This document shows, one piece after another, positions 21,164-37,696 of a stretch of DNA of 64,000 bases. Position 1 is the first letter of the stretch. Each line of letters opens with the position of its first letter. The translations under genes were made by a program, and so were the position numbers. The notes beneath the pieces were generated by a model, which was given only the letters and a program-made list of their open reading frames with translations, was not told the origin of the DNA and made no database searches. Source of the DNA: Naegleria gruberi. Taxonomy: Eukaryota. Location of the stretch: NCBI GenBank assembly GCA_000004985.1, contig GG738876.1, one strand, 5' to 3'.

Positions 21164-23236
21164 ATGTCATCAACAATGAACAACAGCAACAGGGAGGAGG
21201 TAACGCCTCTGATACAGAACACTACTAGTGTAGTATCATCAACATCGATAAATAATGGCAATTATCAACAACAAGACACAACACTGATTAGGAGGAATGT
21301 ATCTCCTTCTACATTAAAAAGAGCTGATATTGGAAAAGACTATTATACAGACAATCATAGTAATCGCTCTAGCTCTAGTGATTTATCTAACCTCGAGAAA
21401 CAACCAATTTACAAAGCTAAAGGAACTAAAAAACAAAAATTTCTATTCCATTTCTTTAATATTTCATGCCCACTTTTCATTGTAGTACTGGTTGCTTTAG
21501 GACTGGGAGTGGGATTGATTTTTATACTGTCGAGGACACAAACTGAAGTACAACCAACTGGTACTAGGGCCGCTGTGGCAAGTGATAGTACGATTTGTTC
21601 CGAAATGGGATTGAAAGTCATAAAGGAAAAGAAAGGAAATGCTGTTGATGCAGCCATTGTAGTTGCTTTATGTTTGGGTGTCACTAGACCATTTGCTAGT
21701 GGAATAGGTGGAGGTGGATTTATTACTATTTTCATGAATGAAACAAAGACTGTGGATTTTATTAATTCAAGAGAAACTGCTCCTAGTGCTGCCAGTCAGG
21801 ATATGTATGAAAATAATTATGATGAAAGCGTATTTGGTGGAAAGTCCATTGCTGTTTATGGAGAAATTAGAGGATTACATACAGCTCACAAACTCTATGG
21901 TAAATTACCTTGGAAGGAGTTATTCACTGATGTTATCAATATTGCCAGAAATGGTTGGATTGTTGAGCCGTTGTTGGCTGTGCGATTATCACAGGATGAT
22001 ATTCTTAAATTCCCAACATTGGTACAATTTACAACCATTGGTTCTGATGGAAAGAGAAGAGTTTATCATGAAGGTGAATTAATTAAGAGAACTGATTTGG
22101 CAAATACTTTGGAGAAAATTGCTTCAGATGGTCCAAACATTCTCTATGAAGGTCCAATTGCTCAAAAGATTGTAGAAGAAATACAACAACAAGGTGGCAT
22201 TATTACATTGGATGATTTGAAGAACTATCAACCTGAAAGACCTTTCTATGATGAAAATCCAATTATTTCTCAAAAAGACATGACATTGGAATTGAATGAT
22301 TTTAAGGTGATTTTACCTCCACCACCATCTGCTGGACCTGTTATCAAGTTTATTTTGAGTATTTTGAATAATTTCAAGATTGGTGATAATTCACCAATGG
22401 GTCTTAACTATCACTATATTTTGGAAGCTTTGAAATTTGGATTTGGACATAGATCCAATCTAGGAGATGTTAATTTCTTACCTAAGGAAAATGTTACAAA
22501 ATATATCATTAATCAATTACTAAGTGATAGTTATGCCTCTAGTATTGCATCTGAGAGGGTTTCTCCATCAAGAACATTCCCATGGTCACATTATTATTCA
22601 GATAATTATGCACCTGTTAAGGATAAGGGTACATCCCATTTCTCTGTTATTGATGAAGATGGAAACTCTGTTGCCATGACCACTACAGTCAACCATAACT
22701 TTGGAAGTAAGGTTGCTAGTGCATCAACAGGTATTGTCTTTAATAACCAAATGAATGATTTCACAGTAGATCTTCACAAACCAAATCAATTCGGATTACC
22801 ACCATCTGCAGCTAATGTTATTGCTCCAGGCAAACGACCATTGAGCTCAATGTCACCTGCTATTTTCCTTGATAAGAGTGGAAATAGGGTCAAGTATATT
22901 ATTGGAGCTTCAGGAGGACCAACAATTATCAGTGCAATTATTGAAGTTTTTTATTCAATTGAAAAGTTTAAAGTCCAACCAAATCTCGCAGTTGCACTTC
23001 CAAGACTTCATGCTCAACCTGGTTCAGATGTAGTCAAAATGGAAGAGGGTTTCAATAGACAAGTTATCACTGCTCTACAAGAAAAGGGACATACCTTTGA
23101 ACCTGTTCAAATTCTTCCAGATGGCCATACTATAGGATGCTGTCAAGTCATTCAAGTTAGCAGCACTGAAAATGACCAAAATCTTTTCCTTCCTGGAACA
23201 GATCCAAGAAAATTAGGTAGTCCCGCTTGCTTTTAA
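21164..23236 (+). CDS. gamma-glutamyltranspeptidase (GGT, Ntn-hydrolase), type II membrane anchored
   Basis: 690 aa. N-terminal signal-anchor FHFFNISCPLFIVVLVALGLGVGLIF. Autocatalytic and catalytic region TSHFSVIDEDGNSVAMTTTVNHNFGSKV. PLSSMSPAIF and GASGGPTIISAI motifs are typical of GGT. Confidence 0.85.
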   Translation: MSSTMNNSNREEVTPLIQNTTSVVSSTSINNGNYQQQDTTLIRRNVSPSTLKRADIGKDYYTDNHSNRSSSSDLSNLEKQPIYKAKGTKKQKFLFHFFNISCPLFIVVLVALGLGVGLIFILSRTQTEVQPTGTRAAVASDSTICSEMGLKVIKEKKGNAVDAAIVVALCLGVTRPFASGIGGGGFITIFMNETKTVDFINSRETAPSAASQDMYENNYDESVFGGKSIAVYGEIRGLHTAHKLYGKLPWKELFTDVINIARNGWIVEPLLAVRLSQDDILKFPTLVQFTTIGSDGKRRVYHEGELIKRTDLANTLEKIASDGPNILYEGPIAQKIVEEIQQQGGIITLDDLKNYQPERPFYDENPIISQKDMTLELNDFKVILPPPPSAGPVIKFILSILNNFKIGDNSPMGLNYHYILEALKFGFGHRSNLGDVNFLPKENVTKYIINQLLSDSYASSIASERVSPSRTFPWSHYYSDNYAPVKDKGTSHFSVIDEDGNSVAMTTTVNHNFGSKVASASTGIVFNNQMNDFTVDLHKPNQFGLPPSAANVIAPGKRPLSSMSPAIFLDKSGNRVKYIIGASGGPTIISAIIEVFYSIEKFKVQPNLAVALPRLHAQPGSDVVKMEEGFNRQVITALQEKGHTFEPVQILPDGHTIGCCQVIQVSSTENDQNLFLPGTDPRKLGSPACF

Positions 23237-23803
23237 TAAATACCTTTTAAGGTGTATAGGATTCTTTATAATTTCTCATCTGGTCAGAGATTCCTCAATT
23301 GCACATTTGCAACACTCTTGTATTAGAAAGGAGAATATTGAATAAGGATGTTGTCGTTGTTTTCATTGAGATAGAGATTAGAATTTTATTTGTGAATGTA
23401 AAACAAGGTAATTTTAGAGTCAATAAGGATGAGTTGAAAGAGATAGAGCTACTATGCGATTGTATCTTGATTTTCATGGATCCTGATGGTTTATGAAAAA
23501 ACCGAACTGGTATTTTGAAAATTGACCAAATTCGAATGCATATCCCAAAACACATTATCTTTCGACATTAATGGTCCATTACATCAATTCAATAAATACG
23601 AATCAAAGTCTCGCTTTAAATTGTACTATCACAATCCATCAAAATGTGTGTTTTTTTAACGCGACACGAATTGGATCCCTACATGTAATTCCATCTCTTC
23701 ACTGGTTTAGATACCATTCAATTACGATTTTTGTGAGCCCACACCACTTGTTTCTATTGAGTTTTTTACCTTGTACAGTCGAAAAAAACACCACAACACA
23801 ATA

Positions 23804-25480
23804 ATGTTCCAATCTCAAATACCTTCTCAACAACTCTCAGCGATATGTATGAGAGAACAACAATCTCAACAGCCACAACAACATTATCCTAGAGATGCAT
23901 TAGAACTAAATCAACGATTCAAGGATCATCAACAATTTAAAGGTGATCATCCTTTTCATCACAAAGAGCTAGATTCATTAATTTATCAACAACCTCAACA
24001 ATACAATAAGGAAGATTTTGCTTTTCAAAACTCAGAAAACACTACAGCTCCATTAAATGTGATGGCAGTAATTTCAACAAGTTCCTCAATAGAACCAAGG
24101 TTAAGACTGGACATGTACAACAATGCATCTGGCCATTCCTCCTCGCAAGCGGCCACAGATTCAATCAAAATGGAAACAAAACAAGAGCTACCCATGCAGA
24201 TGCTCAATAAGGATAACAAAAATTCTCTCATAACCATGAGCACAACTCCCCATACTAATATTAACAGCAATAACCAACATGCAACTAATTTATTTCAACA
24301 TCATGTGAACATGCAGAATAATAACCATTCAGCTTCACCTATGAACCATCACCATTCTACAGATTCGATATCCTCACTCAATCATAATACTACAACATGT
24401 AAACAAAATTCTCAAAATTCCTCATGTCACATCCAACCATCCACTCAACAACAACCCTTCTTCCACAATTCACAGCCAATTAATCAAGAGACGCAACCAC
24501 AACAAAACACAGTTCAAGACAATTCAAAAAATAGGCCACAAAGGAGAAATAGTAACAGCTCCTGTTCTCCAAAGAAACGAACCACATTTGGGATGTCTAA
24601 TCATTATCAACAACAACATGTTGGTGGCACATCAGTAAGAGGTGATGGTGGCCAACAATCTTACATGCCATTTAATGCTTCTCCATCCAAATATAATAAC
24701 AATTTAAACACATCTACATGTGGTGAAATAATATCGAATAGCAATGGAACCACTTCTGAATATCATCAATTTATGAACAATAATTATTCATTGCAACAAC
24801 GAATTGAAACATCATCTCGATCAACAACTTCCCTACAAAATGTTTCTCCAATGCATGCTCAAAAGTCCGTGCAAGTTTCACCACCTCCATCTTCAAACAA
24901 CAGCACCACCACATTCAACATTCAACAGGAAAAGATTAAAAAACCAAGAAAAACCATCAAGAGAAAGTATCAATTCAAGAATGTCAAGTCAGGAGAGAAT
25001 GTTAGATCTAATTCCTCAAGTCCATCTTCTCCATCCTCCTCTCAGAATCAACATTCTAATGATTCTAAATGTAATTCCATTGAGACTGTATCCTATTATA
25101 CAACTACAGATGGAAAGGAATTGGATTTAACTGGCTATTATCAACATCAATTACAGTATACAACTTTTGATTTCTATAATAATTCATCAGTATCAATTGT
25201 AAAGGCAAATCCAACCTTTGATGTAAAGAGTTTCAAGAGGAGTGTTGATTCAATTTCAAAGGATGAATTACTCAGAGTTTTACATTTAACTCAACAACAG
25301 GCGAGTACAATATTGGGCTGCAGTGTTTCAACCATTAAAAGAAGATTTTATGGTTTGAGAAACGAGTTGGGTTTAACCAAGTGGCCAAATAATTACTTTG
25401 AATATAGTCATATGAAATTGTTTGAGGAGATTTATCCACTTTCCTTAAACTTTATTTTGAATAAGGGTGAGAGCAGATAG
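23804..25480 (+). CDS. paralogous low-complexity protein with C-terminal RWP-RK-like (KWP) domain
   Basis: The track ORF starts at a TTG at 23771; the first ATG is 23804 (MFQSQIPSQQ...). The C-terminal block is KDELLRVLHLTQQQASTILGCSVSTIKRRFYGLRNELGLTKWPNNYFEY. It is collinear with the domain of the 18127..20919 protein. Confidence 0.55.
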   Translation: MFQSQIPSQQLSAICMREQQSQQPQQHYPRDALELNQRFKDHQQFKGDHPFHHKELDSLIYQQPQQYNKEDFAFQNSENTTAPLNVMAVISTSSSIEPRLRLDMYNNASGHSSSQAATDSIKMETKQELPMQMLNKDNKNSLITMSTTPHTNINSNNQHATNLFQHHVNMQNNNHSASPMNHHHSTDSISSLNHNTTTCKQNSQNSSCHIQPSTQQQPFFHNSQPINQETQPQQNTVQDNSKNRPQRRNSNSSCSPKKRTTFGMSNHYQQQHVGGTSVRGDGGQQSYMPFNASPSKYNNNLNTSTCGEIISNSNGTTSEYHQFMNNNYSLQQRIETSSRSTTSLQNVSPMHAQKSVQVSPPPSSNNSTTTFNIQQEKIKKPRKTIKRKYQFKNVKSGENVRSNSSSPSSPSSSQNQHSNDSKCNSIETVSYYTTTDGKELDLTGYYQHQLQYTTFDFYNNSSVSIVKANPTFDVKSFKRSVDSISKDELLRVLHLTQQQASTILGCSVSTIKRRFYGLRNELGLTKWPNNYFEYSHMKLFEEIYPLSLNFILNKGESR

Positions 25481-25898: not shown

Positions 25899-28276
25899 TC
25901 ATTTACTCATATCAATGGAAATATCATCAGTGAGGGTTTGGGTGCTGTGTGTAGAGATAGATGAAATACTCTCTCTTATCTTTTTGATAGCAAAGTCTAG
26001 TAAACCAACGATTGGAAAATCAAGCCATATTTTCTCATCATTATTCATTTCGTTTGTCCATAGAATCAATCTTTGAAGGAGGAATGATTTTTCTTCACTA
26101 GAAATTTGGGATGGATTAGTAAGGCATTTGGAGAGCTCTTGCCTTAGTTCTATCCTCTCTTTATCACATGGTTCAATATAGATTGGTAAAGTGAGCATTG
26201 AGACAGACTCTCTAAATTGGTTTCCTAATTCAAAGTGTTGGACATAGTACCTTCTTGGTGAGTTAGAATCAATGGCCCAGTAAAGGGTATGCGTTCCCTC
26301 TAAGCCTTTGAGCTCAAAATTACCCATATTATCAAAGTGAATCTGTCCATCTTGGACTAGTTCTTTAAATTGCTCTAGTTCGTCTTTGAAAGTCGTAATA
26401 AAAGGAGTATCTTTAGGCAGACTATTGGTAGATGAAAGAGCTGTGGCGCGGTGCTTAATAAAACTTTGGACATCTGAACTGACATATACTCTACCACCAT
26501 GTGATTTGCTTTCAGTTCTTGCAGCTTGGTTGACTGCAGTGCCAAAGTAATCATATCTCTTGGTGGTTGGGTCAAATTGGGATTCAATTTCTTTTCCAAA
26601 GTGAACGCCCATTTTAACTCTTGGTCCTTTGTAAATAATTTCATTATTCCACTTGACTTCTTTCATGTCTGGAAATTCCAACATTTCAGGTGTCCAATGT
26701 CCTTTCAATAAGCCGTTTTGAATAGCAAAACAGCAACCTAGTGCTTCTATTGGATCATTGAATGCGATCATAAAACTGTCTGATTGGGTTTTCACTTCAT
26801 ATCCTTTAAACTTTCGAATATTTTCTCGCACTATTCTATGGTGAATGGCCAATACTTTCTTCATCAAATCTGAATCTAAAGTCCACATTAAGGATGAATT
26901 TTGTATGTGAGTGAAAACAATGCAAATAGGAGCTACTTTTGGAGCTAGACGATTTTCTCTCTTTCTAATCGAATTCTTTCTAACAACCCATCCAATCAAG
27001 AACACAAAAATTCCAACCAATAATATTGCAATAGTAAAACTGACAACACTGATGGAAATAATGAATTCGTTTCTCTTCTCAATTGGTAATACAGGCTCAG
27101 CAGTCCAAGCTTTCCACTTGGCTGTATTGTTTGGGTTTGATAACCACTTACAAGCAGCATCTTCTAAAGTCATTGAATTGTAAGCAACATATCCCATCAT
27201 GGTTACTTGATCTCTACCTCTATAATTCAAATTTTTAAGAAAGTTTTGAACACTTGAAGAGAGAGAAGAGACAGCACTCGTTTGGAGCTTACTATATGTT
27301 GACAAAGGGTAATCACAATCAACCAATCCATTGGCAATATTGTGAGCTGTATGACAGCTATCAGTAAATTGAGGAAGATAGATTCTAGATGGTGGATTAG
27401 GTCTACTGAATAATTGATGTGGAAACCAAAAATATGAAACCATCTCTTTTCGTTGTTGTTGAGCGTTTTGTAAATTTTCAATGAGATAGGTTTCAGTATC
27501 ATTATCAGGTGCATATTCCAACTGCAAATTCAACTTTAAATTCTTGATAATCTGATCATCATAATTCACCCAAGTTTTAGAGCCACTGACCATTCTTGTC
27601 ATGTTTGAAAGTCTAAAGTATCTGTAGTTATTTTGAACTGCATCCTTCATGAAATTTGGAATGAAAAACCCAATTTGGCCACTCGGACCCAAATCGCCAA
27701 TGTCTGTAATATGTTTACCATTAACCACATATTTTCTAAGATGAAAAGATTACTTGTTAGAAAGATCAGCGCATGCACTTACTTGTAATTTTCAAAGTTA
27801 GATAATTTCCAGTATTCTAACAACGCAATTGGACGTGTGGCTCCTTCCTTTTCCATAAGTTCCAAAGAATCCACAATATTTAGTTTTAAAATATCAACGC
27901 AAACTCCTAATTTTTCCTCGAGTATTATTGTTGCAAGAGCATTATTCATCGAGCTCGCCAGCCAATTATTTTCAATAAGAGTTATTCTTGGTGAAAAAGA
28001 GGAACAGTGGCTTGAAGATGCATCTTCAGGTAGACAACTGGCAACTGTTTTTCTAGTCGACGAAATATGTTGATACTGATGGGTTTGCATGTTTTCCAAT
28101 GGCGATCCACTCACAAAATAATAAGTTTCGTAATCGTGATTGTCAAGCTTATCAGCACCAATAAACATGCTAATAACAAATACAAAAAGTATTAATTTTG
28201 TGATAATGGATAATCTGGACCGTTTCCAATAATGTAATCCAACAAAACTACTACTACTAATATTCCTCGTAATCAT
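25899..28276 (-). CDS. receptor-type class III adenylyl cyclase, paralog 1: signal peptide, about 390-aa extracellular domain, 1 TM, catalytic domain; 2 exons 28276(or 28516)..27783 and 27735..25899
   Basis: The catalytic domain shows the adenine-specifying Lys in KGYEVKTQSDSFM and Asp in KRYDYFGTAVNQAARTES, which suggests ATP rather than GTP specificity. TM helix is FTIAILLVGIFVFLIGWVV. Exon 1 carries a hydrophobic signal-like segment (LSIITKLILFVFVISMFIGA). Intron 27782..27736 is 47 nt, GTAAGT...CTTAG, phase 2, with a CTAAC branch. The junction reads ...LEYWKLSNFENY-K-KYVVNGKHITDIGDLGP. The start codon is ambiguous: in-frame ATGs lie at 28516, 28276 and others. Confidence 0.7.
26590..26990. 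repeat. about 400-bp segment nearly identical at nucleotide level to 31160..31560 in the paralogous cyclase gene
   Basis: One run is 100% identical: ctcttggtcctttgtaaataatttcattattccacttgacttctttcatgtctggaaattccaacatttcaggtgtccaat, at 26616..26698 versus 31187..31269. The flanks are about 90% identical. The rest of the two genes is much more diverged. This fits gene conversion between tandem paralogs. Confidence 0.6.
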
Positions 28277-28835
28277 AATATTCAATATAAAATAGCAAAT
28301 CCACCACATAATTCTCGAATCAAACATGATAAAATCACAATATGAAATTTCATCCATTTGTATTTCAAACTTTCTTTGATTAATCGTGTATTCATCATCT
28401 CCTACTTCTTGTTCATTCCGTCTTCCCTCCAGAAGCAGCATTAATACGTTGTTGTTGCCAGCACAAGTTGTATCGGAAAGAACATGTTTGCCCATTTTTT
28501 TTCGTTCTCTCGTCATGTAAGATCGTGATGCCTAGCCTTATCTTCTTTTTTATACCAAATCCAGCTTGCGCGCCAAAGATTCTCTCATTACAGCGAATTT
28601 AGAGAGTTTCATTAAGGAAATGATGCAATAGAATATTGTGTTATTTATTTGTAATGGATTATATTCTATCATCTCCCAGTGCAGTTCTTCGACATTTCGT
28701 TTATATTGAATTGAAAGAAGTATTTATGCTTGAAGTATAGATAACTTACAATTTTGTAACTTTTAAATTCTGAATGAGTTGAGTAATGTTGTGATCGAAA
28801 ATGAACTTTTTTTCTAAAAATAAAAATATAAAAAA

Positions 28836-30368
28836 ATGGCATCAAAATCATCAAAAGAAACAAGAGGTTCCCATGTTGATGCAATCAGAGAAGAATTAGA
28901 ACAAGGCAAGGGACGTGATAATTTGATCGGTAAAGAATTTATTAAAAATAATAACAGAAATTATTTGGAATCTGGGTTAAAAACAAATATTAGACCCTTG
29001 ACAGAAAGTGATGATTATGAAATTTATTTTAGCGGCAAATCAACGAATGGCGCATTATTGACAGGATCAACGGAACCAAAGCAATTGGATGGGTTTGAAA
29101 AGTTTACAAAATATGATAGTGATAATGCAAAGAAATTATCAATCCCGAAAGATCAAGCTTTGAAATTTATTGATATTGGACTACAATTTACAGTGATAAT
29201 GACAACTAGGAATGAAGCTTTTTTATATGGAGACTTTGTATATGGATCAAGTTCGGCTTCTATTAATCCTCTTGGAAGGCAATTATCAATTCTAATGACG
29301 CTCACACCAGAAGTTAAACTTAATTATTTCCCTGATGAACCTGTTGCCATGTTGTGTGGAGAACAATTTGTTGCAGTATTGGATAGCTGTAATAGATTGT
29401 GGTATTGTGGTATTGAAAAGTTTGGAACTGCTAATAGTAGTTGTACTTATGATTTTGTGGAAATTGGATTGAAAAAATATTTGGAGACTGAATTTGTTGA
29501 TGAACCTACACATATCACTCACTTTAGAGTTGGAGGAAGACACTTGTGTTTTTGTATTAATAATAGGACTATTATTTCAACAGGTAAGTGACAATTCTTT
29601 CCATTTCATTCGAATACTCATATTATTCAAAGGTGCAAACTATTATGGACAGGTAGGTCATTAGCTTTAAATTAAATACTCAATCCAAAAGTTGGGAATT
29701 ATAAACACACCAGATTTGACACCACCAGTTCCCCCAAGTACTGTACTGACTGTTGCTAGTACACTTTCTCGCTATACATTCGTTAAAACTTGGAATGCAG
29801 ATGGAAAGTATAGAGTAAGAGACGTTGCTTGTTCTGGAAATATGACAGCTATTCTAACAGGTAAGCTCTAATCATAACACCCAAATTTTAACATTAATTA
29901 TTAGAATGTGGAAAATTATTTAAAACCTCTAATGCAGCTATTGCATCTGAGTCAATTGAATCAGTTGTTCTGGATGGATTTTCACTTACTACCATCTCTG
30001 GTAATTGGACTCATATTCTGGCACATACAAGCAAAAACCAAATGATGGGCGTTACGGATAATCATGTTACTGAATTCTTTAGCGAATCTCCTCTAAAGAA
30101 TTGTGATAATTTACACATCTCAACAGGAACCAATTCTAACAATACCTATTTTATTTACTCAAATAATGAATTATATGAACCACATAATCCAAAGGCAGTT
30201 CTCAAATCTTCCCTACCAATAGTTGTTTGTAAATTGACCTCTGAAGCAACTATGGTTTTATGTATGAATTTTAAGAGCAACAAGTCAATTCTTGCAATGA
30301 AACGAAACCTTCTCCAATGTACAGTATCACAAGGGCTATCAGATGTTCTAATCAATGCCCAACAATAA
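28836..30368 (+). CDS. RCC1-repeat-like protein, 4 exons: 28836..29583, 29633..29652 (20-nt micro-exon), 29692..29860, 29905..30368
   Basis: Splicing produces an RCC1 signature: ...NNRTIISTG|ANYYGQ|LGIINTPDL.... Introns are 49, 39 and 44 nt (donors GTAAGT, GTAGGT, GTAAGC). An alternative in-frame acceptor at 29937 would give a 77-nt last intron. The gene lies between the two tandem cyclase paralogs on the opposite strand. Confidence 0.5.
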
Positions 30369-30370
30369 AT

Positions 30371-32832
30371 TTATGCTCCAGATTGAATCAATTCTTCAGG
30401 GCATGACATTACTGCGATAGAACTAGAAGAAGAAAGCGACTCTTTTCTACAGGGTTGAGCGACACTATTTCGTCTTTTCCTGTTATCTGGACGGATAATT
30501 GTATCTTCATATGCATATTCTTTGTTATCTGAAACAATGTTATCCATTTCAGCAGGAAGATAATGAGAGATGACAATTGGTATGAGATGCTTCAATTCCA
30601 ATTCAGTCCATGCATCCTTTTCTTCTTCGGTATCATTATTCCACAATACAAGCCTATGCAGAAGTTTACTCTTCTCATTTTCATTCCATTTCGATGGATC
30701 ACTTATACATGATGCACACGATTGTTTCAATTCCATTCGTTCCTTATCAATTTTCTCTCTCAACAATGGAACTGATAATCCAGAGTCAATTCTAACATGA
30801 GGCAACAATTCGAATTGTTGAATGTAGGAAGTTCGAGGGGAAGTTGTATCCATAATCCAAAACAAAGTGTGATTACCTTCCAATCCTTTCAAAATAAAGT
30901 TTCCCATATTTTCGAATTGGATTTTTCCAGAGTAAAGCAATTGTTTGAATTGAAAGATTGGATCCTTATGAATGGGAAACCCCTTATCCATGCAAATATT
31001 GCAACGAGAAGCTCCTCCCATTTGATGCTTTAGGTGGTCGTGAATATTTGAGCAAATGTAAATTCTTCCTCCTTGAGCTTGATTTTCAGTTCTAGATGCT
31101 TGGTTGACCGTCGTGCCAAAGTAATCATATCTCTTGGTGGTTGGATCAAAATGAGCTTCCACTTCACTGCCATAATGAAGGCCCATTCTAACTCTTGGTC
31201 CTTTGTAAATAATTTCATTATTCCACTTGACTTCTTTCATGTCTGGAAATTCCAACATTTCAGGTGTCCAATTTCCTTTCAACAAATCATTCTGAATAGC
31301 AAAACAACAACCAATTGCTTCTATTGGGTCACTGAAGGCAATCATAAAGCTGTCTGATTGAGTTTTCACTTCATATCCTTTAAACTTTCGAATATTGTCT
31401 CGAACAATTTTGTGATGAATGGTAACAACTTTCTTCATCAAATCTGAATCCAAAGTCCACAACAGTGAAGCATTCTGAATATGAGTGAAAACAATGCAAA
31501 TAGGTGGTGCTTTTGGGGCCAATCTATTTTCTCTCTTTCTAATCGAATTCTTTCGAATGCAAAATCCACAGCAAAAAACACAAAAACCAATTAGTATAAT
31601 AGCAAGTGTAAACCCCACAACAGTCATTGAAATAATAAAGGCATTACTCTTCTCCGGTTGAAAAGGTGGCTCTGAAATCCAACTCTTCCATCTCTCTGTA
31701 TTATTGCCTTTCAAAATCCAAGTACAGGCAGCATCCTCTTTCGACATTTTATCATACGAAACTAAGCCTAACAGTTCAATCTGGTCAGCATTCGTCAGTT
31801 TCATCCTTTCCAAAAAGTTTTGCACTTTTTCAGGAAAACTCAACACTGCCCTAGTTTGCAGTTTACTGTAAGTAGTCATGGCAAAATCACAATCCACCAA
31901 ATTATTCTCCACATTGTGAGGTGATACACATTCTGCAGTAAATGGTGGAAGTGTCACACGTTGTGGAGCATTAGGTCTACTGAATAATTGATGAGGTGTG
32001 AAAAAGTAGGAAACCAGCTGCTTTCTCTCCCGTTCTGCATTTCTCAACTCTTGAATCAGAAACTTCTCAGTGTAATTCTGAGGAGGATATTCCAAAACGA
32101 GATTCAATTTCAGATTTTTAATAACCTGCTCATCAAAGTTGACCCAAGTTTTTGCTCCACTAATGTAACGTGTAGCATTCACTGTACGATAGTATCGATA
32201 ATTCAAGCTCAGTGGATTATCTATAGCCATCCAATTAGGAATATACCATCCAACTTGTCCTAATGGACCTAAATCTCCAATATCCATTACATTTCGTCCA
32301 TTTAACACATACTTTCTAAAACATTTCAATAAGAAACATTCAATTATTATTCCACCATTCCAGAAAACAATCCAAAAATCAATCACAGTTTAATTATTTA
32401 TCAAGTAAAAATTGAGATTTCTTACCTGTAAACATCCAAATGATTTAACTTCCAAAATTCTAACAAGACGTAGGGAACCTCATCTCCTCTACTCTCCATC
32501 ACTCTAAGAGATTCATCCACGCCATATTCCTCAACATCGACACATACTCCAAGTACTTCCTCGAGGAAAACTTTTGCTATTTGAATGTTCATCGTTGTTG
32601 CTAACCAATTATATTGGATTAGTTTAATTCTGGGCGAAAGTGGTGTGCATGCAGTTCCTGAGGCGGTATGAAGTGAAGGAAGGCATGATGATGATGTTGA
32701 ATATGATGTTGGTGAAACATGTTGTTGGTTTGATGGTTTAGAATGTGCAAACAAGATGACTAAACACAAGACTAAACTCAATCGAAAGAAGTAACGAAAT
32801 AGAAGGGAATAATTGCGTCGCCGTTTCTTCAT
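30371..32832 (-). CDS. receptor-type class III adenylyl cyclase, paralog 2; 2 exons 32832..32426 and 32315..30371
   Basis: Signal peptide MKKRRRNYSLLFRYFFRLSLVLCLVILFAHS. The probable start at 32832 is internal to track ORF 32422..33132. Same architecture and same intron position and phase as paralog 1. Intron 32425..32316 is 110 nt, GTAAGA...TTTTAG. The junction reads ...LEFWKLNHLDVY-R-KYVLNGRNVMDIGDLGP. Catalytic motifs: KGYEVKTQSDSFMIAF and RYDYFGTTVNQASRTE. Confidence 0.7.
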
Positions 32833-33994
32833 TGTTTCTTTTCTCAAAAACCACACAAACAACCAATACAGTACCAACTCCAGTTTGGATTCGTTCAGTT
32901 TCCCTTTATCTATATTAGGACATGAGACATATAAATATTGAGGACCAAGTTTCCTCCACATGTTGAGAGATTCTATCCCGCATGTTGGGATCCATGTCTT
33001 CTCATTTCGTACAAAATTATTAAGGCCTACGACGTTTAGTGATTGCTTGTTCTGTACAGTTTCATTTGAGGAAATAGATATTGATAAAAAAGATGAGAAG
33101 GATAGTAATTGATCACAAGATAATAGTTTCATTTGTGCAAGTGATGATAAAGGTAATTACTAGAGCTGGTTTCGGATTGGTTGGTTTCGAATAATATTGG
33201 TTAACAGATGTAAGTTGATGATGATAAAATAACCTGTGTGCTATCATGTTATCTGGTTTCGGCAGTTTTTTAAATGATTATTGTGTTCTATCTTTCTAAT
33301 AATTATTGTGATCAATTTCGAATACACATGTATTATCAGAAACGTACGTTACTATTTTGAACTCTCTACGAAAGTAATAGGCAGTTAATGGCAAGACATT
33401 ATGACAATCATTTGATTGAAAAAGCAAGAATAGTTTCAGTTTCCAATAATGAAATCTGCAAATCGTACAAGTTCATTCTCTCTGATTTTCAAAAGACCTT
33501 TTCAATAATCAAATCTTCCAAAATCAACACGTTCCCCTTACAACCCGAACCATTAAGCTTTTCAAGTTTTTTATCCATACTTTCGAATTTTCTTTCGAAT
33601 TTAATTTCTTATTAAGAAGCACAAGAGACCATTGTATTTTTCCAAAACAACACTTTAAATAAAACTTTTCTTTTTCACTTTTGGCTATTGGGAGTAATTT
33701 CACAAACCACTCTCTATTTGTCGATTTACAACAATATCCAAAATTCTCATCCAACACTATTAATATTTTTTTACAAACACTTGAAAAAATGTTTGAAAAA
33801 ATGTTATGAAAATTTTCTCAAATCTCTTTCGATTGATTTAGTAATTAATTGTTAAATTTATTGAAATTCAACCTTTTTAAAAAGACAAGCGAAGTTATTG
33901 GTCTTGCTTGTTCATAGATGGCATATGCACGTAAAGTTGTCACAACTCGATACCAAATTAAACAACTGCAAGATTTCGAATAAGATTAAAAAAA

Positions 33995-36900
33995 ATGTCA
34001 CTACTCAATGCCAGTGATTTTTCTGATGGAATTCCTTCGCCGATTCATACACCAAAATCTAACAAGGAGATAGTCTTTCCGAATGGTGATTCTGGTATGC
34101 TAACGCCTCTTCAAGATGATTCGAATGTACTTTCAGAAGATTCGAATAATATTTCTTCTTCAAATTCTTCACCTTCTATTGCTATTATCAAGAATGGATC
34201 ACATGAAGAGGATTTAAAAGATGATATCAAGATTTATTCATCATCACCTGTTCCTGCACTTGCCCTGTCAAAATTAATGAAAAATCATCAGGAAGAATCT
34301 ATCCGAAACATTTCCAATAATTATCCAAATAATAATAACAATAACAACACTCTTCAAACAACACCAAACAGTAGCCGAAGTACTCATTCCACTCTCTCAA
34401 ATGGTTCTTCCACCATCATGATGGGAAATACTTCACAAAGAACACTTTCTCCCATTTATCATTCTCTTCACAATGCTTCGTCTACCTATTCGAATGTTAA
34501 TCACAGTCAGCAGCATAATTTAAACTCGAGTCGTTCCAACAATTCTTCGTCAGGTTCAAGATTTCTTTCACCCCAAACTCCAAGAAGATTTAATCATTAT
34601 CCAATGTATCGATCAACTTCGACACCAATCATTTCTCCAAGGTACAATCCACAAATGGTTTCTCCACGTGTCATGATGAATACAAGTTTACATAGTGGAT
34701 TAAACTCTGCTAGATCGAATAGAATGATTTCCATGCAGCAACAACAGTTCAATTCATCAGCAGCAGCAGCAGCATCAGCAGACGAAACTTCATTGAGTGA
34801 AATAGTGCAGATGAGTATTGATGAGGAAGGTACTTATCCTTCATTTGGATTCTTATTGGATACGTTGTGTGAGAGACAGTTTGATAGAGTTGTGAAGGGA
34901 GTTCACACAATTATCGATGATTCTGAGAGGGAAATTGAACAATTGAAAATGTGGATTGAAAAGAATGTGGAAGAAATTGATTATCTGAATCAAGTGAAAG
35001 ATAGTTTAATGGTTCAGTATCAGGAATTAACGAGAGAGATGGATAGAGAAAGACAAACTCTATTGATTAAGAGTAAGGAGAATGAAAATCTCAAATTTGA
35101 GCTGGAAATGAAGAGTATGGAAATTAAGAATGTTGAAAGACAGTTAATGACCAATAAGAATCAAAATTCTGAATTGAATGATAGAATTGAACAAGTGGAA
35201 AAGGAACTAAAGCAAAAAGAAAGACAAATTAATTCCACAAATAATAATTTAATCGAATCAGAGGAGAAATTGAAATCCAAATTGAATGAAATCTCCTCAC
35301 TGAATAACAAGATTGAAATGTACACTTTAGAAACGAGCGAACTCAAACTTGCAAAGGAAAAGTTAGAGAAACAAATTGAAACTCTGAGAAATGAGGTCAA
35401 AACTCTCAAGAGTAATAATGAAGGATACGTGACAATTATCGATCAACAAAACAAGACAATCAATAGAGTTAATGCCAATCTGAAAGAGAAGCAATCAGAG
35501 CTGGAAGAAAAAGATAATGAAAAACAAGATTTATACAATCAAATGGTCATTCTCAAGAGAAATTTCACAGAGAAGGAAAATTCATTGGTTGACTCTCAAA
35601 GTGATTTGGTCAAAATGAAGAGAAAGTTTGAAGATCAGGCACGAGAATTTGAATCATATCGACAAGAGATGAAACAGGAAATGGAAAAGTATCACACCCT
35701 TGTTTCTGATCATCAACAATCAAAGATGAATGAATTAGAAAAGGATCAAGTATTGAAAAAGCATGCAACACTGTTGGAACAATTTGAAGCTTTGCAATTG
35801 AAACATAACAGTTCAGTGTATGATTTACATGAAACCAGACGTGAAAGTCAAGAATATCAAAGAACAAACGAATCCCAAAAGAAGGACATTGAGAAATTGT
35901 TAAAGAGAATTAAGGAACAGGACGATGAAAAATTACAACTCGAAGAGAGGATCAAATGGTTAGAGAGTAACTCTCTCGAGCAAAAGAGCTCCATATCCAA
36001 ACTTCATAAGGAAAATGAAGAGCTCGAGAGTACCGTGTATGGCCTGAAAAAGGATATCAAGATAAGAGAACAAGTATTGGCAGATAAGGATAATGAAATT
36101 TCGCAAAAGGAAAAGGAAATTCAACTCTCCACTGATATTGCCAAAGAAAAAGATTTGGAAATTGAAAAATCTCAAGAAAAGAACCTTTCTCTCCAAAAGC
36201 AAATCGAGCAACTTGATACACAAGTCAAACAATTAACTGGTGATGTTTCAGATCTGAATGAAGAATGTGAAATGTTGAGAAAATATATTTCAGAAGAGAA
36301 GAGTTTCATTCTAGAATCAGATCCAACTCTCAAATTAGTATTACTCATGAAGCAAGAAGGTTTCCCAATTGATGAGTCATACGTTGATAAAATTAGAGGA
36401 AGAAGCATATTCAATTTATTGAGAATGGGAGTTGGTGCTTACAATGTTAGAGTTGGAGATGATGGAAATGGACAAATTGATAGTGAGAGAAGAAAGGAAG
36501 AAACCTTCTTTGCTGAAAAGGCACTCTCTAAATGGTTGCAAAATTTACTTCCTGAAGATTACAATCCTGAACAGAATTTGTATGAAAATATTGCTGATGG
36601 TTTCATGTTGTGTAGAATGATCGATACATTATTTAAGGAAGTTCAGCCTTGCGATCATATTAGAGTAGATAATGCTCTTATTAGAAATCAAAGATCAGAT
36701 TCTGATAACTTGGCAGTTTATTTGGATTATTGTAAAAAGTTAGAATTGAAGAGCTATTTTGAACCTGATATGCTATTCAAAGTTAAAGAAGCCTTTCATG
36801 GTATTCCATCTCTAGCACAAGATTCCATGATAATGGCAAGAGAAAGAGCCTTGATTGTTTCTAATATTGCACAAATATTCGAATTGAATATTAAATGCAA

Positions 36901-37696
36901 CATGTCACCAAGAAAGAAAGAAGAAATACTCGGAAAACTTTTTAATGCAAAACTGGAAAGAGATGCTAATTCACCAATTCTACCAAGATCCAGATCTTCA
37001 TCTGTCAACTCATCTAGAAGTGGTGGTATACGTCCATCAAAAAGAAATAGCATTGCCTTAACTAACTTTTCTATAGCTGTTTCTCCTTCACCACGTATGA
37101 ATGAGGGAATTACACCAAAATCAGCTCGATTTGCAAAAGACATGTTTGAATCTCCAACGATTGGAAACAAAACTCCACCTACTATTCCCTATCTCAAACC
37201 GTTCACATCAAATATGGATTGTCTTTCTCAAGTTTCATCGCCACTCAGTAATGTAACAACTGAGGATGATATTTGGTTGGAACACATGTTAGAAGATATG
37301 AAAATTACACCTTCATCACCTGCAGAATCCAAATTTCAACTCAAATATTATTTGAACAGAGCTGGATCATACTTTGCAAGTGAAGAGCAAAGAGATGAAT
37401 TCATGTCACTTTTGAGAACATTCAAGTTTTTACAAATTGATTTATCAGATTGTCAAAAGTTTGTCAATGAGAAGGAGATTGTTGAAATATTGACAAGATT
37501 GTGTGAAAATAGACATGCATTAAGATTGGATCTGAGTGGATATTGTCTAAAGCCTTACATTAGTCTTGTTGAAAAGTATCTTGCATCTAAAACAGCCATC
37601 AAATATTTGATAATGAAAGACTGTGGATTTAGTGAGGAAGAAAAATCTTCATTGAAACGAGTTGCAAAGACCTTTGACATTTTGACAGATCTGTAA
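33995..37696 (+). CDS. large (1233 aa) coiled-coil protein with a calponin-homology (CH)-like domain and a C-terminal leucine-rich region
   Basis: The N-terminus is S/N-rich. About 520 aa of heptad-rich coiled coil follow (KLKSKLNEISSLNNKIEMYTLETSELKLAKEKLEKQIETLRNEVKTLK...). CH-like block: FAEKALSKWLQNLLPEDYNPEQNLYENIADGFMLCRMIDTLFKE. C-terminal region: LRLDLSGYCLKPYISLVEKYL. ATG at 33995 in context aaaaaaaATG. Confidence 0.6.
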   Translation: MSLLNASDFSDGIPSPIHTPKSNKEIVFPNGDSGMLTPLQDDSNVLSEDSNNISSSNSSPSIAIIKNGSHEEDLKDDIKIYSSSPVPALALSKLMKNHQEESIRNISNNYPNNNNNNNTLQTTPNSSRSTHSTLSNGSSTIMMGNTSQRTLSPIYHSLHNASSTYSNVNHSQQHNLNSSRSNNSSSGSRFLSPQTPRRFNHYPMYRSTSTPIISPRYNPQMVSPRVMMNTSLHSGLNSARSNRMISMQQQQFNSSAAAAASADETSLSEIVQMSIDEEGTYPSFGFLLDTLCERQFDRVVKGVHTIIDDSEREIEQLKMWIEKNVEEIDYLNQVKDSLMVQYQELTREMDRERQTLLIKSKENENLKFELEMKSMEIKNVERQLMTNKNQNSELNDRIEQVEKELKQKERQINSTNNNLIESEEKLKSKLNEISSLNNKIEMYTLETSELKLAKEKLEKQIETLRNEVKTLKSNNEGYVTIIDQQNKTINRVNANLKEKQSELEEKDNEKQDLYNQMVILKRNFTEKENSLVDSQSDLVKMKRKFEDQAREFESYRQEMKQEMEKYHTLVSDHQQSKMNELEKDQVLKKHATLLEQFEALQLKHNSSVYDLHETRRESQEYQRTNESQKKDIEKLLKRIKEQDDEKLQLEERIKWLESNSLEQKSSISKLHKENEELESTVYGLKKDIKIREQVLADKDNEISQKEKEIQLSTDIAKEKDLEIEKSQEKNLSLQKQIEQLDTQVKQLTGDVSDLNEECEMLRKYISEEKSFILESDPTLKLVLLMKQEGFPIDESYVDKIRGRSIFNLLRMGVGAYNVRVGDDGNGQIDSERRKEETFFAEKALSKWLQNLLPEDYNPEQNLYENIADGFMLCRMIDTLFKEVQPCDHIRVDNALIRNQRSDSDNLAVYLDYCKKLELKSYFEPDMLFKVKEAFHGIPSLAQDSMIMARERALIVSNIAQIFELNIKCNMSPRKKEEILGKLFNAKLERDANSPILPRSRSSSVNSSRSGGIRPSKRNSIALTNFSIAVSPSPRMNEGITPKSARFAKDMFESPTIGNKTPPTIPYLKPFTSNMDCLSQVSSPLSNVTTEDDIWLEHMLEDMKITPSSPAESKFQLKYYLNRAGSYFASEEQRDEFMSLLRTFKFLQIDLSDCQKFVNEKEIVEILTRLCENRHALRLDLSGYCLKPYISLVEKYLASKTAIKYLIMKDCGFSEEEKSSLKRVAKTFDILTDL

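What the first reader, a model, noticed from the sequence alone, without database searches (positions are those of the whole stretch)
25899..33132. Tandem pair of receptor-type adenylyl cyclases with solute-binding-protein-like ectodomains, sharing an identical intron position, with an RCC1-like gene between them
Two minus-strand genes (25899..28276 and 30371..32832) encode the same architecture. Each has a signal peptide, an extracellular domain of about 390 aa, one TM helix and a class III cyclase domain. Both catalytic domains carry the Lys (KGYEVKTQSDSFM) and Asp (RYDYFGT) that specify ATP in class III enzymes, so I call them adenylyl rather than guanylyl cyclases. The conserved ectodomain start (SPRITLIENNWLASSMNNALATIILEEKLGVCVDI / SPRIKLIQYNWLATTMNIQIAKVFLEEVLGVCVDV) looks to me like the N-terminal strand-helix of type-2 periplasmic solute-binding proteins (NMT1/SsuA-like). 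That would make these ligand-gated cAMP generators. Both genes are split at exactly the same codon by a phase-2 intron (…EYWKLSNFENY|K|KYVV… and …EFWKLNHLDVY|R|KYVL…). A recent local duplication explains this. A 4-exon RCC1-like gene lies on the opposite strand between the copies.
Basis: partly seen in the sequence, partly recalled or inferred. Interest (0 to 1): 0.7.

Follow-up and report, generated by a model that had tools for sequence, protein, structure and literature searches.

The report
Betaine-sensor-type receptor cyclase gene pair
Two neighbouring Naegleria gruberi genes encode membrane receptors that join an outside domain of the bacterial betaine/choline-binding type to an inside cAMP-forming domain that lacks one normally essential metal-binding residue, so they probably need a partner to make cAMP.

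Summary
The window is Naegleria gruberi. Two minus-strand genes (A 25899-28276, B 30371-32832; 58% identical) each encode an N-terminal hydrophobic leader, a solute-binding ectodomain, one TM helix, a class III cyclase domain and a helical C-terminal region. Both have one GT..AG phase-2 intron in the same codon. A divergent four-exon RCC1-like gene lies between them.

The interpretation needs three corrections.

1. The ectodomain is OpuAC/ProX family, not NMT1/SsuA. Its best structural matches are TmoX, DmpX, OpuAC and ChoX, and it keeps their four-sided aromatic box. The ligand is therefore probably a quaternary-ammonium or sulfonium compound.

2. The ATP-specifying Lys/Asp and the Asn/Arg are canonical, but the first metal-binding Asp is His in both genes. 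It is His or Ser in all 11 members of this Naegleria clade and Asp in every other relative examined. A sister Naegleria clade keeps both Asp but has lost Arg (plus Asp and Asn in N. gruberi). This points to C1/C2-like heterodimers rather than self-sufficient cAMP generators.

3. The intron is ancestral: it is also present in N. fowleri and N. lovaniensis homologues. The tandem duplication is specific to the N. gruberi lineage but old.

Orthologues already carry OpuAC + cyclase annotation automatically, and no member has been characterised. This is a new variant of the receptor-cyclase kind, of moderate interest.

The parts
25899..27735 (-). Gene A exon 2 (includes stop codon). Encodes the C-terminal two thirds of the ectodomain, the TM helix, the cyclase domain and the C-terminal region.
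   Evidence: No protein record for this gene exists in the 5.8-billion-protein collection.
27736..27782 (-). Gene A intron: 47 nt, GT..AG, phase 2, within the codon after ...SNFENY.
   Evidence: Same codon and phase in gene B and in the N. fowleri and N. lovaniensis homologues.
27783..28276 (-). Gene A exon 1: hydrophobic leader (aa 20-42) and the first lobe of the OpuAC-type ectodomain. The start codon is uncertain because the ORF stays open to 28516.
27138..27988 (-). Gene A OpuAC/ProX-type solute-binding ectodomain (aa 97-364; the span includes the intron).
   Evidence: Pfam OpuAC over profile positions 2-256 of 257, 18.7 bits, just under the 21.2 cut-off. The family-level profile finds bacterial ProX-type proteins at E 1e-40 to 1e-51. 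Coordinates.
26973..27071 (-). Gene A transmembrane helix (aa 387-419), followed by the basic stretch RKNSIRKRENR.
   Evidence: Hydropathy scan. Coordinates.
26226..26969 (-). Gene A class III cyclase homology domain (aa 421-668).
   Evidence: Pfam Guanylate_cyc 71.4 bits. Alignment.
26907..26909 (-). Gene A His441 codon, at the position of the first metal-binding Asp.
28836..30368 (+). Intervening four-exon gene (exons 28836-29583, 29633-29652, 29692-29860, 29905-30368; 466 aa). It is a divergent RCC1-like beta-propeller protein. It is not part of the cyclase system as far as can be told.
30371..32315 (-). Gene B exon 2 (includes stop codon).
   Evidence: The public model P0001 (638 aa) covers only part of this exon.
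32316..32425 (-). Gene B intron: 110 nt, GT..AG, phase 2, within the codon after ...NHLDVY.
32426..32832 (-). Gene B exon 1: signal-peptide-like leader (MKKRRRNYSLLFRYFFRLSLVLCLVILFAHS) and the first lobe of the ectodomain.
31715..32631 (-). Gene B OpuAC/ProX-type ectodomain (aa 68-336; the span includes the intron). Aromatic-box residues are W76, W127, W193 and F241.
   Evidence: Pfam OpuAC 25.5 bits, above the 21.2 cut-off. PDB 4xz6 at E 5e-9. Residue mapping.
31550..31648 (-). Gene B transmembrane helix (aa 359-391).
30800..31549 (-). Gene B class III cyclase homology domain (aa 392-641). Carries K453, D457, D533, N540 and R544.
   Evidence: Pfam 73.6 bits. PDB 1fx2/1fx4 at E 4e-27. AF2 pLDDT is mostly above 95 across this stretch, and Foldseek's top hits are 1fx4 and 1fx2.
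31481..31483 (-). Gene B His414 codon, at the position of the first metal-binding Asp.
30527..30772 (-). Gene B conserved helical C-terminal region (aa 651-732). No Pfam family. A disordered tail follows at 30374-30526.
   Evidence: no Pfam hit. (helices 260-341 of the model, pLDDT about 75-94). The motifs ...YIxQFE... and ...PSxxxExEKSxLLxR... are conserved across the family.

Best explanation
A and B are lineage-specific tandem paralogues of a Discoba family of single-pass receptor-type class III cyclases.

Shown:
- Each protein has a leader, one extracellular Venus-flytrap domain of the OpuAC/ProX solute-binding family, one TM helix and a trypanosome-type cyclase homology domain, followed by a conserved helical C-terminal region.
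- The ectodomain keeps the four-sided aromatic box that OpuAC-family proteins use to cage a trimethylammonium or dimethylsulfonium head group.
- It lacks the TMAO-specific Glu of TmoX.
- The cyclase domain carries the ATP-type Lys/Asp, the second metal Asp and the transition-state Asn/Arg. The first metal-binding Asp is His.

Inferred:
- The ligand is a quaternary-ammonium-type small molecule (betaine, choline, carnitine or similar). Its exact identity is unknown, and it probably differs between A and B.
- Ligand-induced closure or re-packing of the ectodomains changes the pairing of the cytosolic cyclase domains, as proposed for trypanosome receptor cyclases and animal receptor guanylyl cyclases.
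- Because the metal site is incomplete, A and B most likely act as the substrate-binding ('C2-like') half of an asymmetric dimer. A partner that keeps both Asp residues would supply the metal-binding half.
- The best candidate partner is the sister OpuAC-cyclase clade (N. gruberi EFC37151.1 = P0008). It keeps both Asp but has lost the residues that A and B retain.
- The product would be cAMP.
For: Organism and family:
- P0001 is 100% identical and named Naegleria gruberi.
- Homologues in N. fowleri, N. lovaniensis, Willaertia magna, Entosiphon sulcatum and an MMETSP transcript carry OpuAC + Guanylate_cyc.

Ectodomain:
- Pfam OpuAC matches over its full length.
- PDB sequence hits are 4xz6 (TmoX) and 7yle (DmpX).
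- The family profile retrieves about 60 stand-alone ProX-type binding proteins at E 1e-25 to 1e-51 with about 90% coverage.
- The AF2 model of the N. fowleri homologue's ectodomain has pLDDT 92.9.
- Foldseek ranks 1-38 are all betaine, choline, TMAO, DMSP, carnitine or ergothioneine binders.
- TmoX box residues W55/W102/W177/W222 (PMC8918994) align to W/W/W/F in B and W/W/W/W in A. They are aromatic almost throughout the family.
- TmoX E131 aligns to V or I, and F106 to H, N or R.

Cyclase domain:
- Best PDB matches by sequence and by fold are the T. brucei receptor cyclases 1fx2 and 1fx4.
- Catalytic table: all clade I members have H or S at the first metal position, with K, D, D, N, R conserved.
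- Clade II keeps D and D but has R->K. N. gruberi P0008 also has D->E and N->H.
- Outgroup OpuAC-cyclases and 26 further Discoba-type cyclases have the canonical Asp at the first metal position; 24 of those 26 are canonical at all positions, and two distant ones have Ala for the specificity Lys.
- Clade I has 100% bootstrap support and clade II is its sister.

Established knowledge:
- In class III cyclases one chain gives the two Asp and the other gives K/D/N/R. Mammalian C1/C2 and sGC alpha/beta are heterodimers with complementary losses. PMC8815786 states this principle for tmAC.
Against: - No biochemical or expression data exist for any family member.
- The ligand class rests on conserved aromatic residues and fold only. 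The polar residues that pick the ligand tail are not conserved with any characterised protein.
- The structure model is of the N. fowleri homologue, because the spliced N. gruberi sequence could not be submitted. Pocket geometry could not be measured.
- The complementary degeneration in clade II is strong only in N. gruberi P0008. N. fowleri P0160 has only Arg->Lys, which may still allow some activity.
- No evidence of physical pairing was obtainable.
- His can coordinate Mn2+ or Zn2+, so residual homodimer activity is not excluded.
Confidence: 0.5

Rival explanations
1. A and B are self-sufficient homodimeric adenylyl cyclases. The His replaces Asp as a metal ligand, perhaps shifting metal preference towards Mn2+, so ligand binding directly gates cAMP synthesis by the homodimer.
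For: All other catalytic residues are canonical and strictly conserved across 11 clade members. His is a competent ligand for transition metals (general chemistry). The closest characterised relatives, the T. brucei receptor cyclases, act as homodimers (PMC6027212).
Against: The same position is Ser in a sub-clade (P0006, P0156, P0157), and Ser is a poor metal ligand. This suggests the position is no longer used for metal binding. Every other related cyclase examined keeps Asp. From established knowledge, replacing this Asp in studied class III enzymes strongly reduces activity.
Confidence: 0.22
2. A and B are catalytically dead pseudo-cyclase receptors. They signal by scaffolding, by nucleotide binding without turnover, or by titrating active cyclase partners (dominant-negative regulation).
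For: An invariant metal ligand is lost in the whole clade. The family is expanded, and Naegleria species carry many cyclase genes ('at least 81', PMC9928731), which leaves room for regulatory pseudo-enzymes.
Against: K, the second Asp, the specificity Asp, Asn and Arg are all retained in 11 sequences that are otherwise only about 45-60% identical. That pattern is not expected if catalysis were abandoned.
Confidence: 0.15
3. The ectodomain is an NMT1/SsuA-like binding domain for sulfonates, nitrate or thiamine-precursor-like ligands.
For: It belongs to the same broad type-2 periplasmic-binding-protein superfamily. SsuA does appear among distant fold matches (rank 49).
Against: There is no NMT1 or SBP_bac_3 Pfam hit at E<=1, while OpuAC matches end to end. 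The PDB sequence search finds only OpuAC-family proteins. Foldseek gives TM 0.38 for SsuA against 0.64-0.67 for TmoX and DmpX. The Trp box typical of betaine binders is conserved.
Confidence: 0.03

Closest known systems
Trypanosomatid receptor-type adenylyl cyclases (ESAG4/GRESAG4; structures 1fx2, 1fx4)
   Same: Both are Discoba proteins with an extracellular Venus-flytrap sensor, a single TM helix, a cytosolic class III domain and a family-specific C-terminal region of about 110-140 aa. They are the best sequence match (E 4e-27) and best fold match for the catalytic domain. The alignment runs through the trypanosome insertion between the two halves of the domain. Their ligands are likewise unknown.
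   Different: Trypanosome enzymes have a roughly 90 kDa ectodomain with two VFT domains (PMC6027212; the type-1, LivJ-like assignment is from my own knowledge) and a fully canonical catalytic set (FTDIE). A and B have one roughly 35 kDa type-2 OpuAC domain and His in place of the first metal Asp.
Bacterial OpuAC/ProX-family solute-binding proteins (TmoX 4xz6, DmpX 7yle, OpuAC 3l6h, ChoX 2reg, ProX 1r9l)
   Same: Same fold and same Pfam family. The aromatic box for the onium head group is conserved, as is a Cys pair.
   Different: The bacterial proteins are soluble or lipid-anchored partners of ABC importers. Here the domain is covalently joined through a TM helix to a cyclase. The polar ligand-tail contacts (TmoX Glu131, Phe106) are replaced.
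Mammalian membrane adenylyl cyclase C1/C2 and soluble guanylyl cyclase alpha/beta pseudo-heterodimers
   Same: The pattern of complementary loss is the same. One chain lacks a metal ligand and keeps K/D/N/R (clade I, including A and B). A related chain keeps both Asp and loses Arg, with or without Asp and Asn (clade II). From memory, mammalian C2 domains carry Ser at this position (FASI), as in P0006-type proteins.
   Different: The origin is independent and the two halves are separate single-pass receptor proteins. Clade I still keeps the second metal Asp. Pairing is untested.
Class C GPCRs and other eukaryotic receptors with OpuAC ectodomains
   Same: The same OpuAC-type module serves as the extracellular sensor. 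OpuAC+7tm_3 was reported by Krishnan 2012 (PMC3251606) and de Mendoza 2014 (PMC3971589). This work also found it joined to PDEase_I, to kinase + guanylyl cyclase, and to TRP-like channels.
   Different: The output module differs. I found no paper describing the cyclase fusion.
Animal receptor guanylyl cyclases (ANP receptor type)
   Same: VFT ectodomain, single TM and class III cyclase, with dimer-based activation (PMC6027212).
   Different: The animal receptors have a type-1 ANF_receptor ectodomain, a kinase-homology domain and GTP-specific Glu/Cys residues. A and B have none of these.

Membership tests
Class III nucleotidyl cyclase (Pfam PF00211) | Profile match above the curated threshold, and the cyclase homology fold | tested here: met
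   71.4 and 73.6 bits against a cut-off of 21.9. The AF2 model is confident over the domain. The Foldseek top 50 are all class III cyclases.
Class III nucleotidyl cyclase (Pfam PF00211) | Two metal-binding Asp residues (F-x-D-I... and ...G-D-x-F/Y) | tested here: not met
   The first Asp is His (A H441, B H414) and the second is present (A D484, B D457). Based on alignment to 1fx2/1fx4 and to about 40 relatives.
Class III nucleotidyl cyclase (Pfam PF00211) | ATP-specifying Lys and Asp (guanylyl cyclases have Glu and Cys/Ser) | tested here: met
   K453/D533 in B and K480/D560 in A align with the Lys and Asp of the T. brucei adenylyl cyclases.
Class III nucleotidyl cyclase (Pfam PF00211) | Transition-state Asn and Arg | tested here: met
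   N540/R544 in B and N567/R571 in A.
Class III nucleotidyl cyclase (Pfam PF00211) | Measured cyclase activity and nucleotide preference | not testable with these tools
   Needs an enzyme assay.
Trypanosomatid-type receptor adenylyl cyclase | Type I topology: extracellular N-terminal sensor, one TM, cytosolic catalytic domain plus C-terminal extension | tested here: met
   Hydropathy shows one leader and one TM, with a basic stretch on the cytosolic side. A C-terminal helical region is present.
Trypanosomatid-type receptor adenylyl cyclase | Large ectodomain with two VFT domains (PMC6027212; I take these to be type-1, LivJ-like, from my own knowledge) | tested here: not met
   There is a single OpuAC (type-2) domain of about 270-300 aa and no ANF_receptor or Peripla_BP_6 hit.
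OpuAC/ProX solute-binding family (Pfam PF04069) | Profile match above the curated threshold | tested here: met
   B scores 25.5 bits against a cut-off of 21.2. A alone scores 18.7, just below, but over the full profile. The family profile hits ProX-type proteins at E down to 3e-51. PDB 4xz6 at E 5e-9.
OpuAC/ProX solute-binding family (Pfam PF04069) | Two-lobe type-2 binding-protein fold closest to betaine/choline binders | tested here: met
   AF2 pLDDT 92.9 for the N. fowleri homologue's ectodomain. Foldseek ranks 1-38 are all OpuAC-family proteins.
OpuAC/ProX solute-binding family (Pfam PF04069) | Aromatic box of three or four Trp/Tyr/Phe residues for the onium head group | tested here: met
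   The positions of TmoX W55, W102, W177 and W222 are W, W, W, W in A and W, W, W, F in B. The 3D arrangement could not be measured.
OpuAC/ProX solute-binding family (Pfam PF04069) | Works with an ABC importer | tested here: not met
   The domain is fused in one reading frame to a TM helix and a cyclase. No ABC transporter gene lies among the neighbours scanned.
   No Pfam hit at E<=1. SsuA 2x26 is at Foldseek rank 49 with TM 0.38.
RCC1-like repeat proteins (intervening gene) | RCC1 repeat or RLD profile above threshold | tested here: inconclusive
   WD40_RLD E 1.4e-14 but 54.7 bits against a cut-off of 150. RCC1 17.6 bits against 21.7. RPGR RCC1-like domain at E 1e-4.

The most novel reading that the evidence does not exclude
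Naegleria has independently evolved an obligate asymmetric receptor cyclase. Several ligand-diversified 'C2-like' OpuAC receptors (clade I, including A and B; 2 to 4 or more per species) would each pair with one 'C1-like' OpuAC co-receptor (clade II, apparently one per species). The single active site would then form only across two different betaine/choline-type sensors. This would be a coincidence or co-receptor detector for quaternary-amine metabolites from prey, osmolytes or host. The N. fowleri orthologues could be relevant to choline or acetylcholine sensing in tissue.
Probability: 0.25. Interest if true: 0.75.

Novelty: new variant of a known kind. Interest (0 to 1): 0.5.

Why it matters
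Ligands of protist receptor cyclases are unknown even for the long-studied trypanosome enzymes.

This ectodomain belongs to a family whose ligand chemistry is well understood and cheap to screen: betaines, choline, carnitine, TMAO, DMSP and ergothioneine. This Naegleria family is therefore one of the most tractable places to show a defined small molecule switching a eukaryotic receptor cyclase.

The clade-wide loss of one metal-binding Asp, with reciprocal losses in the sister clade, offers a fresh and independent case of class III cyclases evolving from homodimers to complementary heterodimers. It is testable with a handful of constructs.

The work also corrects public gene models. B's record lacks exon 1, and so lacks its signal peptide and half of the sensor domain. 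A has no protein record at all.

Orthologues exist in the pathogen N. fowleri.

Tried and rejected
- The look-up of encoding contigs on P0001 found no record, so the public N. gruberi gene context could not be read.

I used exon-wise fragments plus the N. fowleri and N. lovaniensis homologues instead. The ectodomain model is therefore of N. fowleri P0002, not of A or B.

- The first tree script timed out. It was replaced by a numpy/NJ version. This is neighbour-joining only, with no likelihood tree.

- The C-terminal region has no Pfam family. The fold search of the intracellular model returned only cyclase-domain matches, so that region remains unassigned.

- Literature searches found no paper on OpuAC-cyclase fusions or on Naegleria receptor cyclases. 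The N. gruberi genome paper is not held.

- A search for a link to acetylcholine chemotaxis in N. fowleri gave nothing usable.

- Considered and rejected: guanylyl cyclase (no Glu/Cys at the specificity positions), pseudogenes (both reading frames are intact and conserved), and a third copy in the window (tblastn finds only two).

Full report
**What is there**

The window is AT-rich eukaryotic DNA (GC about 0.34). A 638-aa 'predicted protein [Naegleria gruberi]' matches it at 100% identity, so the window is Naegleria gruberi.

Two minus-strand genes fit the description.
- Gene A: exon 1 is 27783..28276, exon 2 is 25899..27735, and the 47-nt GT..AG intron is 27736..27782.
- Gene B: exon 1 is 32426..32832, exon 2 is 30371..32315, and the 110-nt GT..AG intron is 32316..32425.

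In both genes the intron splits the codon after a conserved Tyr in phase 2 (...NFENY-K|KYVV and ...HLDVY-R|KYVL). The spliced products are 776 and 783 aa and are 58% identical over 675 aa. tblastn finds only these two copies in the window.

**Architecture**

Pfam gives Guanylate_cyc at 71 and 74 bits. It also gives OpuAC (PF04069) over essentially the whole 257-position profile: B scores 25.5 bits, above the curated cut-off, and A scores 18.7, just below it.

A hydropathy scan shows one N-terminal hydrophobic segment and one strong TM segment (A 387-419, B 359-391). Each TM is followed by RKNSIRKRENR, so the cyclase is cytosolic.

An AF2 model of B's intracellular part is confident over the cyclase domain. 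It shows a further helical region (model residues 260-341, = B aa 651-732) and then a disordered tail. That helical region has no Pfam family.

**Ectodomain**

- The only PDB sequence matches are 4xz6 (E 5e-9) and 7yle. These are TmoX with TMAO and DmpX with DMSP.
- A profile of the Naegleria ectodomains retrieves about 60 stand-alone 'glycine betaine/proline transport system substrate-binding proteins' at E 1e-25 to 3e-51 over about 90% of the length.
- An exhaustive profile search finds 704 relatives, 41 of them at E<=1e-30.
- The AF2 model of the ectodomain of N. fowleri P0002 has pLDDT 92.9.
- Its 38 best PDB neighbours are all betaine, choline, TMAO, DMSP, carnitine or ergothioneine binders. 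SsuA appears only at rank 49 with TM 0.38.

The TmoX pocket is W55, W102, F106, E131, W177, F220 and W222 (PMC8918994). My residue count through the HMMER alignment reproduces each residue type, which validates the numbering.

In B these positions are W, W, H, V, W, Y, F. In A they are W, W, N, I, W, Y, W.

The four-sided aromatic box for an onium head group is therefore kept. The Glu that hydrogen-bonds the TMAO oxygen is not.

I infer a quaternary-ammonium or sulfonium ligand of unknown identity. The lining residues that differ between A and B suggest the two have diverged in specificity.

**Cyclase domain**

The best PDB hits by sequence (E 4e-27) and by fold are the T. brucei receptor adenylyl cyclases GRESAG4.1 and 4.3.

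The Asn/Arg pair (VNQAxR) and the second metal Asp are also present.

However, FTHIQN aligns to FTDIE. The first of the two metal-binding Asp residues is His in both genes (A H441, codon 26907-26909; B H414, codon 31481-31483).

This is not a sequencing accident:
- Eight members have His: A, B, N. fowleri P0002, P0004 and P0237, and N. lovaniensis P0003 and P0005.
- P0006, P0007, P0156 and P0157 have Ser.
- The more distant OpuAC-cyclases have Asp. These are Willaertia P0010, Entosiphon P0068, MMETSP P0159 and environmental P0014, P0015 and P0020.
- So do 26 further Discoba-type cyclases.

**Phylogeny and the complementary clade**

The tree is neighbour-joining on 618 columns with 200 bootstraps.
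- A and B are sisters (100%).
- Together with the N. fowleri and N. lovaniensis paralogues they form clade I (100%).
- The sister group (90%) contains N. gruberi P0008 (EFC37151.1, 'adenylate cyclase'), N. fowleri P0160 and environmental P0014.

Clade I has lost only the first metal Asp.

In the sister group, P0008 and P0160 keep both Asp but have Arg->Lys at the transition-state position. P0008 additionally has Asp->Glu and Asn->His.

In class III cyclases one chain supplies the two Asp and the other supplies Lys, Asp, Asn and Arg. Heterodimeric enzymes such as mammalian C1/C2 show exactly this reciprocal degeneration. This is established knowledge, and the principle is stated in PMC8815786.

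Two observations make a 'C2-like' role in an asymmetric dimer the best reading. Clade I strictly retains K/D/D/N/R across sequences that are only 45-60% identical. The lost position varies between His and Ser.

This is inference. A His-based metal site or a pseudo-enzyme role remain possible.

**Intron and duplication**

N. lovaniensis P0005 (locus L001) and N. fowleri P0002 (L002) each have a single intron. With GT..AG ends it lies in phase 2 in the same codon (...SDY-R|KYVQ and ...DEF-R|DYVQ). The shared intron is therefore ancestral to clade I and is not evidence of recency.

A and B arose by a duplication specific to the N. gruberi lineage. The other species expanded independently.

The A/B duplication is old. 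Amino-acid identity is 58%. At four-fold degenerate sites within identical residues, 39% are identical in the ectodomain and 63% in the cyclase domain, against 30% expected by chance.

The CH-domain gene next to B (33995..37696) is orthologous to the gene beside N. fowleri P0002 (44% identity over 946 aa). The locus is therefore syntenic with that paralogue.

**Gene between the copies**

A four-exon plus-strand model gives 466 aa (28836-29583, 29633-29652, 29692-29860, 29905-30368). It has weak RCC1-like similarity:
- WD40_RLD at E 1.4e-14, but below Pfam's cut-off.
- RPGR RCC1-like domain at E 1e-4.

Nothing links it functionally to the cyclases.

**Comparison with what is known**

The general kind is known: Venus-flytrap ectodomain, one TM and a class III cyclase. 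Examples are trypanosome receptor adenylyl cyclases, whose ligands are still unknown, and animal receptor guanylyl cyclases (PMC6027212).

OpuAC domains on eukaryotic class C GPCRs have been reported (PMC3251606, PMC3971589).

Orthologues of A and B in N. fowleri and N. lovaniensis are automatically annotated with OpuAC + Guanylate_cyc. One metagenome protein is even named 'class 3 adenylate cyclase/ABC-type proline/glycine betaine transport system'.

I found no paper describing the OpuAC-cyclase fusion, its aromatic box or its metal-site change.

The public N. gruberi models are deficient. P0001 starts at MDIGDL inside exon 2 and so lacks the leader and the first lobe of the sensor. Gene A's product is absent from the 5.8-billion-protein collection; its best hit is P0001 at 60%.

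**Verdict**

The genes are real, intact, tandem receptor-type cyclase genes with an OpuAC-family sensor.

Calling them adenylyl-type by specificity residues is justified. Calling them self-sufficient ligand-gated cAMP generators is not, because one metal ligand is missing.

Novelty: a new variant of a known kind. Interest is moderate (0.5). The family offers a tractable ligand class and a testable heterodimer hypothesis, but everything beyond domain assignment is inference.

Noticed in passing
window 30371-32832 and 25899-28276: The public annotation is deficient. The N. gruberi record for gene B (P0001, 638 aa) begins at an internal Met of exon 2, so it misses exon 1, the signal peptide and the first lobe of the OpuAC domain. 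Gene A has no protein record at all in the 5.8-billion-protein collection.
   Followed up: yes
P0012, P0028, P0032, P0042, P0022, P0041: Relatives of this OpuAC ectodomain are fused to other outputs in distant eukaryotes. Examples: class C GPCR 7tm_3 (Hondaea), cAMP phosphodiesterase PDEase_I (Mastigella, Pelomyxa), kinase-homology + guanylyl cyclase (Chromosphaera), and a TRP-like channel (P0022, metagenome). In my searches only the GPCR fusion turned up in the literature.
   Followed up: partly
window 25899-28276 versus 30371-32832: Synonymous divergence between A and B is uneven. At four-fold sites, 39% are identical in the ectodomain and 63% in the cyclase domain, with 49 sites in each. 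This could reflect an old gene-conversion event between the tandem copies or codon constraint.
   Followed up: partly
window 30366-30373: The stop codon of the RCC1-like gene (ends at 30368, plus strand) and the stop codon of gene B (30371-30373, minus strand) are 2 bp apart. The 3' ends of the two convergent transcripts must therefore overlap.
   Followed up: no
window 29633-29652: The RCC1-like gene model needs a 20-nt micro-exon encoding (G)ANYYGQ, flanked by introns of 49 and 39 nt. It restores the RCC1 GxNxxGQLG motif, but no transcript supports it.
   Followed up: no
window 18127-20919 and 23771-25480 (+): Two long N/Q-rich ORFs each end in a weak RWP-RK DNA-binding domain (32.7 and 24.3 bits). 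They flank a gamma-glutamyltranspeptidase gene (21164-23236).
   Followed up: partly
window 33995-37696 (+); L002 2135-4930: The coiled-coil CH-domain gene next to B is orthologous to the gene next to N. fowleri P0002 (44% identity). The cyclase locus is therefore syntenic between the species, although N. fowleri has no tandem second copy there.
   Followed up: yes
P0156 (N. lovaniensis) and P0008 (N. gruberi): Some public family members carry long N-terminal extensions: an F-box-like domain in P0156, and about 370 extra residues in P0008. These look like gene-model fusions with an upstream gene. An F-box gene lies directly upstream of the paralogue P0005 in L001.
   Followed up: no
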